From NCBI RefSeq assembly GCF_009914755.1, contig NC_060928.1: a stretch of DNA of 64,000 nucleotides; one strand, given 5' to 3'. The DNA is from the human T2T-CHM13v2.0 reference genome, Homo sapiens. The position numbers and the translations under genes were made by a program. Under the pieces are notes generated by a model. That model saw only the letters and a program-made list of their open reading frames with translations. It was not told the DNA's origin and did no database searches. Within the stretch, counting starts at the first letter, position 1; each line of letters opens with the position of its first letter. Below, piece by piece: positions 62,130-63,456 of this stretch.

Positions 62130-62345
62130 GAAACTAACATTTATTGAGCACTTACTGTCTTCCAGGCACTGTTCTCCATGCTTCATAGATAGAAACAAGG
62201 TCCTCCTTGTTTAAGGCATTATTCCATTTTGCAGATGAGGAAACTGACACAGAGAGGATTCTGGTGACTTGCCCAAGGTCACAGGTGATTAACCATGTGG
62301 CCAAGAGTCAAACCCACTAGTTTGCCTTCAAAGTCCAAGATCTAA
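62130..62345 (-). mobile_element. MIR (target of the HML-2 insertion)
   Basis: CATTTATTGAGCACTTAC..CCATTTTGCAGATGAGGAAACTGA..GACTTGCCCAAGGTCACA. Confidence 0.8.
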
Positions 62346-62383
62346 CTATGACATCAAGACACTGTCCCTTCAGTGCCCTCCCT
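62288..62383 (+). repeat. Left copy of 96-bp direct repeat flanking the HML-2 LTR
   Basis: ATTAACCATGTGGCC...CAGTGCCCTCCCT; 95/96 identical to 63361-63456. Confidence 0.98.
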
Positions 62384-62385
62384 AA

Positions 62386-63360
62386 TGTGGGGAAAAGAAA
62401 GAGAGATCAGATTGTTACTGTGTCTGTGTAGAAAGAAGTAGACATAGGAGACTCCATTTTGTTCTGTACTAAGAGAAATTCTTCACCTTGAGATGCTGTT
62501 AATCTATAACCTTACCCCCAACCCCGTGCTCTCTGAAACATGTGCTGTGTCCACTCACGGTTAAATGGATTAAGGGCTGTGCAAGATGTGCTTTGTTAAA
62601 CAGATGCTTGAAGGCAGCATGCTCGTTAAGAGTCATCACCACTCCCTAATCTCAACTACCCAGGGACACAAACATTGCGGAAGGCCGGAAGGCCGCAGGG
62701 ACCTCTGCCTAGGAAAGCCAGGTATTGTCCAAGGTTTCTCCCCATGTGATAGTCTGAAATATGGCCTCGTGGGAAGGGAAAGACCTGACTGTCCCCCAGC
62801 CCGACACCCGTAAAGGGTCTGTGCTGAGGAGCATTAGTATAAGAGGAAGGCATGCCTCTTGCAGTTGAGACAAGAGGAAGGCATCTGTCTCCTGCCCGTC
62901 CCTGGGCAATGGAATGTCTCGGTATAAAACCCGATTGTATGTTCCATCTACTGAGATAGGGGAAAACCGCCTTAGGGCTGGAGGTGGGACATGCGGGCAA
63001 CAATGCTGCTCTGTAAGGCATTGAGATGTTTATGGGTATGCATATCTAAAGCACAGCACTTAATTCTTTACCTTGTCTATGATGCAGAAACCTTTGTTCA
63101 CGTGTTTATCTGCTGACCTTCTCTCCACTATTATCCTGTGACCCTGCCACATCCCCCTCTCTGAGAAACACCCAAGAATGATCAATAAATACTAAGGGAA
63201 CTCAGAGGCCAGGATGGATCCTCCGTACGCTGAACGCTGGTCCCCTGGGCCCCCTTATTTCTTTCTCTATACTTTGTCTCTGTGTCTTTTTCTTTTCCAA
63301 GTCTCTCGTTCCACCTAACGAGAAACACCCACAGGTGTGGAGGGGCAACCCACCCCTTCA
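62386..63360 (+). mobile_element. HERV-K(HML-2) solo LTR, LTR5_Hs-like, 975 bp
   Basis: Begins TGTGGGGAAAAGAAAGAGAGATCAGATTGTTACTG, ends GGGGCAACCCACCCCTTCA; TATAAAA 62923-62929, AATAAA 63184-63189; no PBS or internal sequence follows. Confidence 0.97.
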
Positions 63361-63456
63361 ATTAACCATGCGGCCAAGAGTCAAACCCACTAGTTTGCCT
63401 TCAAAGTCCAAGATCTAACTATGACATCAAGACACTGTCCCTTCAGTGCCCTCCCT
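63361..63456 (+). repeat. Right copy of 96-bp direct repeat flanking the HML-2 LTR
   Basis: Starts directly after the terminal CA; single difference C63371 vs T62298. Confidence 0.98.

What the first reader, a model, noticed from the sequence alone, without database searches (positions are those of the whole stretch)
62381..62392. Extra AA at the U3 end of the LTR suggests one-ended integration
Seen: the left junction is repeat-CCT|AA|TGTGGGG, while the right repeat continues CCT|CTCAGG, so the AA is not host-derived. The U5 end is a clean CA|repeat. Known: linear retroviral DNA carries a short terminal extension beyond the conserved TG/CA that is lost in normal integration, and the HML-2 polypurine tract ends in A residues just before TG. 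Inference: the U3 end was never processed by integrase, leaving a fossil of half-site integration that would explain the long duplication.
Basis: partly seen in the sequence, partly recalled or inferred. Interest (0 to 1): 0.7.

Follow-up and report, generated by a model that had tools for sequence, protein, structure and literature searches.

The report
Lopsided retrovirus insertion scar in PROM1
An old retrovirus remnant in the human PROM1 gene sits between two 96-base copies of host DNA with two extra letters at one end, likely because the viral enzyme joined only one end and the cell patched in the other; the site and the two letters are already in print, and whether those letters are viral or host is unsettled.

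Summary
Observation real but already in print: a 975-bp HML-2 solo LTR (62386-63360) between 96-bp repeats, with AA at 62384-62385 in neither copy; Kahyo 2017 Table 2 lists the locus and footnotes the two nucleotides. One-ended integration is the likely cause of the long duplication (~0.8): all 4 published long-duplication HML-2 insertions testable in CHM13 have one canonical and one abnormal end (+AA; U5 minus 11 nt; 3' LTR cut at ~nt 257; cut inside the provirus with a fold-back insert), as in experimental aberrant HIV/XMRV proviruses. AA matches the 2 nt before TG in polypurine-tract copies, none of 24 other host-flanked AA-TG LTR starts has AA clearly outside a 5-6 bp duplication, and the 7p21.2 250-bp repeat also ends in AA. 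But 'not host-derived' is not shown: the target site's first five bases end in AA, so AA may be the remnant of an ordinary 5-bp duplication, and a junction-spanning 9-mer recurs inside the LTR (~3% by chance). 'Never processed' cannot be told from a retained 5' overhang. No outgroup genome was available. New member of a known kind; modest interest.

The parts
62288..62383 (+). left copy of the 96-bp host duplication
   Evidence: same 96-mer as Kahyo 2017 Table S4
62384..62385 (+). extra AA between the left copy and the LTR; origin viral terminus, 5-bp target-site remnant or LTR-internal template
62386..63360 (+). HML-2 solo LTR, 975 bp, TG...CA, listed as LTR5_Hs HML2.LTR233; antisense to PROM1
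   Evidence: Subramanian 2011 supplement row
63361..63456 (+). right copy of the 96-bp duplication; its first 5 nt end in AA and would be the ordinary 5-bp duplication
62378..62386 (+). junction-spanning 9-mer (6 host nt + AA + T) that recurs inside the LTR
62642..62650 (+). LTR-internal copy of that 9-mer (LTR nt 257-265), candidate template
   Evidence: null 2.7-3.7%

Best explanation
The 96-bp duplication and the extra AA are likely the scar of an uncoupled (one-ended) HML-2 integration, in which integrase likely joined the U5 end and host repair likely joined the U3 end 96 bp away, keeping the virus's terminal AA. Shown: clean CA-host junction at U5, AA between host and TG at U3, a 96-bp duplication, AA as the 2 nt that precede TG in polypurine-tract-bearing copies. 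Inferred: the linear viral DNA began AA-TG; after the U5 strand transfer the host strand at the nick was copied on for 96 nt and joined, without microhomology, to the free U3 end, either blunt and unprocessed or processed with its 5' AA overhang kept; the two LTRs later recombined to a solo LTR, which keeps the 5' LTR's left junction and the 3' LTR's right junction. Odds: one-ended event about 0.8; AA from the viral terminus about 0.55; if so, unprocessed versus kept overhang about even.
For: PPT-bearing copies read GGGGGAAA|TG (27 of the 30 loci; two full 3' LTRs) and 5' LTRs read CA|TC|TGG (2 of 30), so each end has a 2-nt spacer and the insert has the right length and letters. Of 26 non-PPT AA|TG starts, 16 have AA inside a perfect 5-6 bp duplication, 7 with one mismatch, 1 old copy with two, 1 is an internal rearrangement, and only this locus has a long duplication. 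4 of 4 testable long-duplication loci have one canonical and one abnormal end: 16q23.1 U5 lacks 11 nt, 21q21.1 3' LTR stops at ~nt 257, 6p25.2 stops inside the provirus with a 7-nt fold-back insert. 7p21.2 (full 968-bp LTR, + strand) has a 250-bp repeat ending in AA, so AA would precede TG there too. Experimental precedent: one end by integrase, other by host, with duplications of hundreds of bp (Varadarajan 2016); XMRV 273-bp duplication with a 5-bp U3 deletion (Kim 2010).
Against: The first five bases of the site end in AA and the base before them matches too, giving a host source. A 9-mer across the junction recurs in the LTR (about 3% by chance). In the HIV supplement (my count) none of 24 proviruses with duplications of 36 bp or more has a 2-bp terminal insert (14 one end deleted, 7 both ends normal, 1 one-base insert, 2 both abnormal); 2-bp inserts occur twice with short duplications, letters not given. 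No mirror case (kept TC at U5) among 13 non-PBS CA|TC ends: 10 perfect short duplications, 1 with one mismatch, 1 unclear, 1 unresolved. Enrichment without the discovery locus is not significant (P=0.24). The true HML-2 linear DNA end was not found in print; the RNase H cut 2 nt before TG is inferred by analogy (recalled). The 7p21.2 inserted allele was not seen (empty in CHM13).
Confidence: 0.55

Rival explanations
1. The AA is host: the last two bases of an ordinary 5-bp target-site duplication. The U3 end was placed at the normal 5-bp stagger (joined by integrase, or primed there), and a template switch between the two short copies added the other 91 bp, returning through a 1-nt (T) match.
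For: Right flank starts with a 5-mer whose last three bases equal the last three bases before TG. 5-bp duplications are common for HML-2 (154 of 451 by my reading of Kahyo Fig. S4 text; 5 of 16 perfect cases). Explains length and letters of the insert with no viral remnant.
Against: A 5- or 6-mer ends in AA by chance in 17% of window positions, so the match is not rare. No experimental example was seen in the papers read. It does not explain the AA at 7p21.2, whose site does not start with such a 5-mer.
Confidence: 0.22
2. One-ended integration, but the AA was copied from the LTR interior (nt 257-265) during host end-joining, or the free U3 end primed there first and then on the host through 6 shared bases.
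For: 9-nt junction-spanning match inside the LTR, reached by 2.7-3.7% of null positions. Templated inserts from viral DNA are described at aberrant ends; 6p25.2 shows one in HML-2.
Against: Found post hoc; another ~3%-level coincidence (8 host nt left of the site equal a U5 8-mer) turned up in the same look. The template lies ~255 nt from the end.
Confidence: 0.1
3. The AA is an untemplated end-joining addition or a later 2-bp insertion, matching the viral terminus by chance.
For: AA is 8-11% of local dinucleotides; 1-5 bp inserts occur at aberrant HIV ends.
Against: Needs both length and letters to coincide; later indels exactly at the junction were not seen in 22 of 27 control solo LTRs with clear duplications.
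Confidence: 0.09
4. Pseudo-duplication: the 96-mer was doubled before or independently of integration, or arose by recombination between two insertions in duplicated DNA (Kahyo 2017 model).
For: Proposed in print; one published 'long TSD' (4q32.1) is indeed an internal tandem repeat.
Against: The repeat starts exactly at the CA end and is 95/96 identical; single-copy empty alleles exist for 7p21.2 and 6p25.2; no separate short duplication flanks the LTR.
Confidence: 0.04

Closest known systems
HML-2 LTRs with unusually long target-site duplications (Mamedov 2004, not read; Kahyo 2017, PMC5488345)
   Same: This is the 4p15.32 96-bp locus of their list; the two extra nucleotides are footnoted.
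   Different: Kahyo gives no identity or origin for the two nucleotides and discusses pseudo-TSD recombination models, not one-ended integration; Mamedov's mechanism could not be read.
Aberrant (one end integrase, one end host) proviruses of ASLV end mutants and of HIV-1 under strand-transfer inhibitors or weak integrase (Varadarajan 2016, PMC5041404)
   Same: One normal junction, one abnormal, long host duplication; abnormal end often truncated or carrying templated DNA, as at 16q23.1, 21q21.1 and 6p25.2.
   Different: Natural germline events; here the abnormal end is 2 nt longer rather than truncated, a form absent from 24 long-duplication HIV cases in the supplement.
XMRV clones C-3 and C-8 (Kim 2010, PMC2857682)
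   Same: C-3: 273-bp duplication with abnormal U3 end, read as uncoordinated integration. C-8: an A at the left junction ascribed possibly to the unpaired 5' AA.
   Different: C-3 is deleted at U3; C-8 has a normal 4-bp duplication.

Membership tests
HML-2 (LTR5_Hs) solo LTR | ~968-bp LTR with TG...CA ends and no internal provirus | tested here: met
   975 bp, TG at 62386, CA at 63360; listed as LTR5_Hs solo LTR at the matching hg19 place
Canonical concerted integration | 5-6 bp duplication abutting both ends, no extra bases | tested here: not met
   96-bp duplication and 2 extra nt; 22 of 27 control solo LTRs meet it
One-ended (aberrant) retroviral integration | one junction with intact CA directly on host DNA | tested here: met
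   U5 CA abuts the right copy
One-ended (aberrant) retroviral integration | other junction abnormal, with long duplication or deletion of host DNA | tested here: met
   +2 nt at U3, 96-bp duplication
One-ended (aberrant) retroviral integration | single-copy pre-integration site | not testable with these tools
   no primate outgroup or second human haplotype held (no relatives); Kahyo lists it as not determined
One-ended (aberrant) retroviral integration | short homology between viral end and appended DNA (usual, not constant) | tested here: inconclusive
   none with the host continuation; a 9-mer with the LTR interior at ~3% chance
Unprocessed viral DNA end | extra bases equal the terminal extension of the linear DNA | tested here: inconclusive
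   equal the 2 nt before TG in PPT copies but also bases 4-5 of the target site; true end not found in print
Unprocessed viral DNA end | 3' dinucleotide never removed by integrase | not testable with these tools
   double-stranded genomic sequence cannot show which strand carried the 2 nt

The most novel reading that the evidence does not exclude
Every long-duplication HML-2 insertion in the human genome is a germline fossil of one-ended integration, and the two with full-length LTRs (4p15.32 and 7p21.2) both used an unprocessed AA-tipped U3 end, which would fix the natural end of HML-2 linear DNA from genomic scars alone and show that host end-joining, including fold-back synthesis, rescued retroviral integrations in the hominid germline.
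Probability: 0.3. Interest if true: 0.55.

Novelty: new member of a known kind. Interest (0 to 1): 0.35.

Why it matters
Long duplications around HML-2 LTRs have been a described but unexplained oddity since 2004. Reading them as natural cases of the one-ended integration known from cell-culture work ties the two literatures together, says that viral truncations at 16q23.1, 21q21.1 and 6p25.2 likely date from insertion rather than later decay, and warns that TSD-based callers miss or misplace such insertions. It is a mechanistic footnote, not a new system; the single AA carries less weight than the pattern across loci.

Tried and rejected
Outgroup check: not possible, no relatives held. Mirror test at U5 (kept TC): 37 CA|TC ends, 24 followed by TG of the primer-binding site, 13 examined, no clear case. 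One-mismatch duplications ending in A at the left junction (L036/41/47, L039, L059) were considered as partial AA retention and set aside: selected for AA, and about as many are expected from later substitution (rough estimate, no call). 4q32.1 was dropped from the long-duplication set because it has an ordinary 6-bp duplication; 3q21.2 (18 bp) and 13q12.12 (13 bp) of Kahyo's list were not examined; 7p21.2 is empty in CHM13. The Fisher test of abnormal ends against controls is not relied on: the control pattern demands an intact U3 start and includes paralogous copies. A primer search for 21q21.1 found nothing; a second motif found it. Papers not held: Mamedov 2004, Varadarajan 2013 (45), Oh 2006 a and b (47, 48). 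Searches for a printed link between HML-2 long duplications and one-ended integration, for HML-2 DNA ends (40, 46) and for this LTR as a PROM1 element found none.

Full report
1. Observation. The window holds an HML-2 LTR from TG at 62386 to CA at 63360 (975 bp), between two 96-bp copies of host DNA at 62288-62383 and 63361-63456 that differ at one base. AA at 62384-62385 separates the left copy from TG; the right copy follows CA directly and continues CTCAGG. The description is exact. [quoted passage not shown] Mamedov 2004 is not held, so its mechanism is unseen. Subramanian 2011 (PMC3228705; table passages and supplement rows) calls it LTR5_Hs, + strand, age estimate 9.3 My.

2. What AA could be. 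In copies that keep the polypurine tract the sequence before TG is GGGGGAAA (27 of the first 30 of 366 AA-TG matches; two full 3' LTRs), and 5' LTRs read CA-TC-TGG. That the linear DNA starts AA-TG is inferred by analogy with other retroviruses (recalled); two searches found no mapping of HML-2 ends. A solo LTR keeps the host junction of the 5' LTR on its left, so AA there cannot be polypurine tract and, if viral, is the terminal extension.

3. Census in CHM13. Exact-pattern counts of LTR starts: 316 with a non-A before TG, 41 with one A, 37 with AA not preceded by GA, 329 with GAAA, taken as PPT-bearing after 27 were seen and otherwise not examined. Of the 37, 11 are PPT variants and were dropped; of 26 left, 16 have AA inside a perfect 5-6 bp duplication, 7 with one mismatch (5 independent), 1 old copy has two mismatches, 1 is the 4q32.1 internal repeat, and 1 is this locus. 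Background AA-TG is 25 of 382 (6.5%). Controls: of 30 of the 316 fetched, 2 are 5' LTRs, 1 lacks a U5 end, 27 are solo LTRs, 22 of these with a 5-6 bp duplication (five are copies of one insertion) and 5 without a clear one. At U5, 37 ends read CA-TC; 24 continue into the primer-binding site; of 13 others 10 have TC inside a perfect short duplication, 1 with one mismatch, 1 unclear, 1 unresolved. So an extra terminal dinucleotide is not a feature of ordinary insertions; this locus is the only clear case seen. The patterns are exact, so diverged copies are missed.

4. Other long-duplication loci. Of Kahyo's eight, I examined six. 16q23.1 (61 bp): U3 clean, U5 lacks its last 11 nt at the repeat. 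21q21.1 (450 bp): U3 clean, 3' LTR cut at about nt 257 at the repeat. 6p25.2 (111 bp): U3 clean, other end inside the provirus, followed by a 7-nt fold-back insert. With this locus, 4 of 4 have one canonical and one abnormal end. 7p21.2 (250 bp) is empty in CHM13; its LTR is full length on the + strand and the repeated segment ends in AA in the empty allele, so the inserted allele should read AA-TG, with AA shared by host and viral end. 4q32.1 is not a long duplication and was dropped; the 13- and 18-bp cases were not examined. AA-TG thus marks 2 of 5 loci, the two with an intact U5 end (P=0.037 against 6.5%; P=0.24 without the discovery locus).

5. Known mechanism. Varadarajan 2016 (PMC5041404; parts 1-3, Discussion, supplement read) describes proviruses with one end inserted by integrase and the other by host enzymes, the aberrant end often truncated or extended with copied host or viral DNA, with duplications of hundreds of bases. 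In its supplement (my count) 24 proviruses have duplications of 36 bp or more: 14 one end deleted, 7 both ends normal, 1 a one-base insert, 2 both ends abnormal, none a 2-bp insert. Kim 2010 (PMC2857682; passages and part 2 read) reports an XMRV provirus with a 273-bp duplication and 5-bp U3 deletion, and suggests that the unpaired 5' AA can leave an A in an otherwise normal junction. The HML-2 set matches this pattern well.

6. Against the strong reading. First, the duplicated site begins with a 5-mer ending in AA, and its last three bases equal the three before TG: an ordinary 5-bp duplication here would itself put AA before TG, so a template switch between the short copies that adds 91 bp gives the same sequence with host AA. 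Such an ending occurs at 17% of positions if 5 or 6 bp are allowed. Second, six host bases plus AA-T recur at LTR nt 257-265, a match reached by about 3% of null positions, so the AA could be templated from inside the LTR. Third, integrase removes the dinucleotide only from the 3' strand; the 5' AA can be ligated or filled in, so 'never processed' cannot be read from the genome, though the rarity of 2-nt retention under strand-transfer block favours an unprocessed end if the AA is viral. An outgroup was not available.

7. Verdict. One-ended integration about 0.8; AA from the viral terminus 0.55, 5-bp remnant 0.22, LTR-internal template 0.10, chance 0.09, pseudo-duplication 0.04 (judgement, not computed). 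The locus and two bases are known, the mechanism is known from experiments; the link between them for HML-2, the one-abnormal-end pattern and the 6p25.2 fold-back were not found in searches of an open-access library that lacks Mamedov 2004 and the ASLV papers; figure images and five Kahyo supplements were not read. Also seen: PMC8781664 and PMC3185549 (passages only, nothing further). New member of a known kind; interest 0.35.

Noticed in passing
L105 (G000:C6:2923575-2924545, 6p25.2): The 7 unassigned bases between the truncated provirus and the 111-bp repeat are an inverted copy of viral sequence just upstream (9-bp stem, 8-nt loop), i.e. fold-back synthesis at a broken end; Kahyo 2017 read them as an ORF remnant.
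   Followed up: yes
L038, L132, L133 (G000:C4:164009164-164011664, 4q32.1): Both outer ends of this HML-2 element are U3 termini, head to head, flanked by an ordinary 6-bp duplication; the published '206-bp TSD' is an internal 284-bp tandem repeat (80 nt of U3 plus 204 nt of internal sequence).
   Followed up: partly
L102 (21q21.1): The truncated 3' LTR stops at about LTR nt 257 on an internal CA, directly before the same internal 9-mer that matches the window's left junction; may be chance or use of a cryptic end.
   Followed up: no
window 62155-62420, minus strand: The LTR start read antisense gives a pyrimidine tract followed by TTAG|G (acceptor-like, would open at 62381) and there is a GTAAGT donor at 62155; RefSeq lists an alternative PROM1 exon 62156-62388 and enhancers over the LTR. 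Possible LTR-dependent 5' exon; untested.
   Followed up: no
window 62280-62287: The 8 host bases just left of the left repeat copy equal an 8-mer near the U5 end of the LTR; post hoc, unexplained, probably chance.
   Followed up: partly
window ~62679-62696: The LTR carries a 9-nt tandem duplication, which accounts for most of its 975-bp length.
   Followed up: no
L073, L086/L093, L089/L092, L120/L121: Four independent full-length LTRs with no clear 5-6 bp duplication and, where tested (first three), no long one; candidates for deletion-type aberrant integration or later rearrangement.
   Followed up: partly
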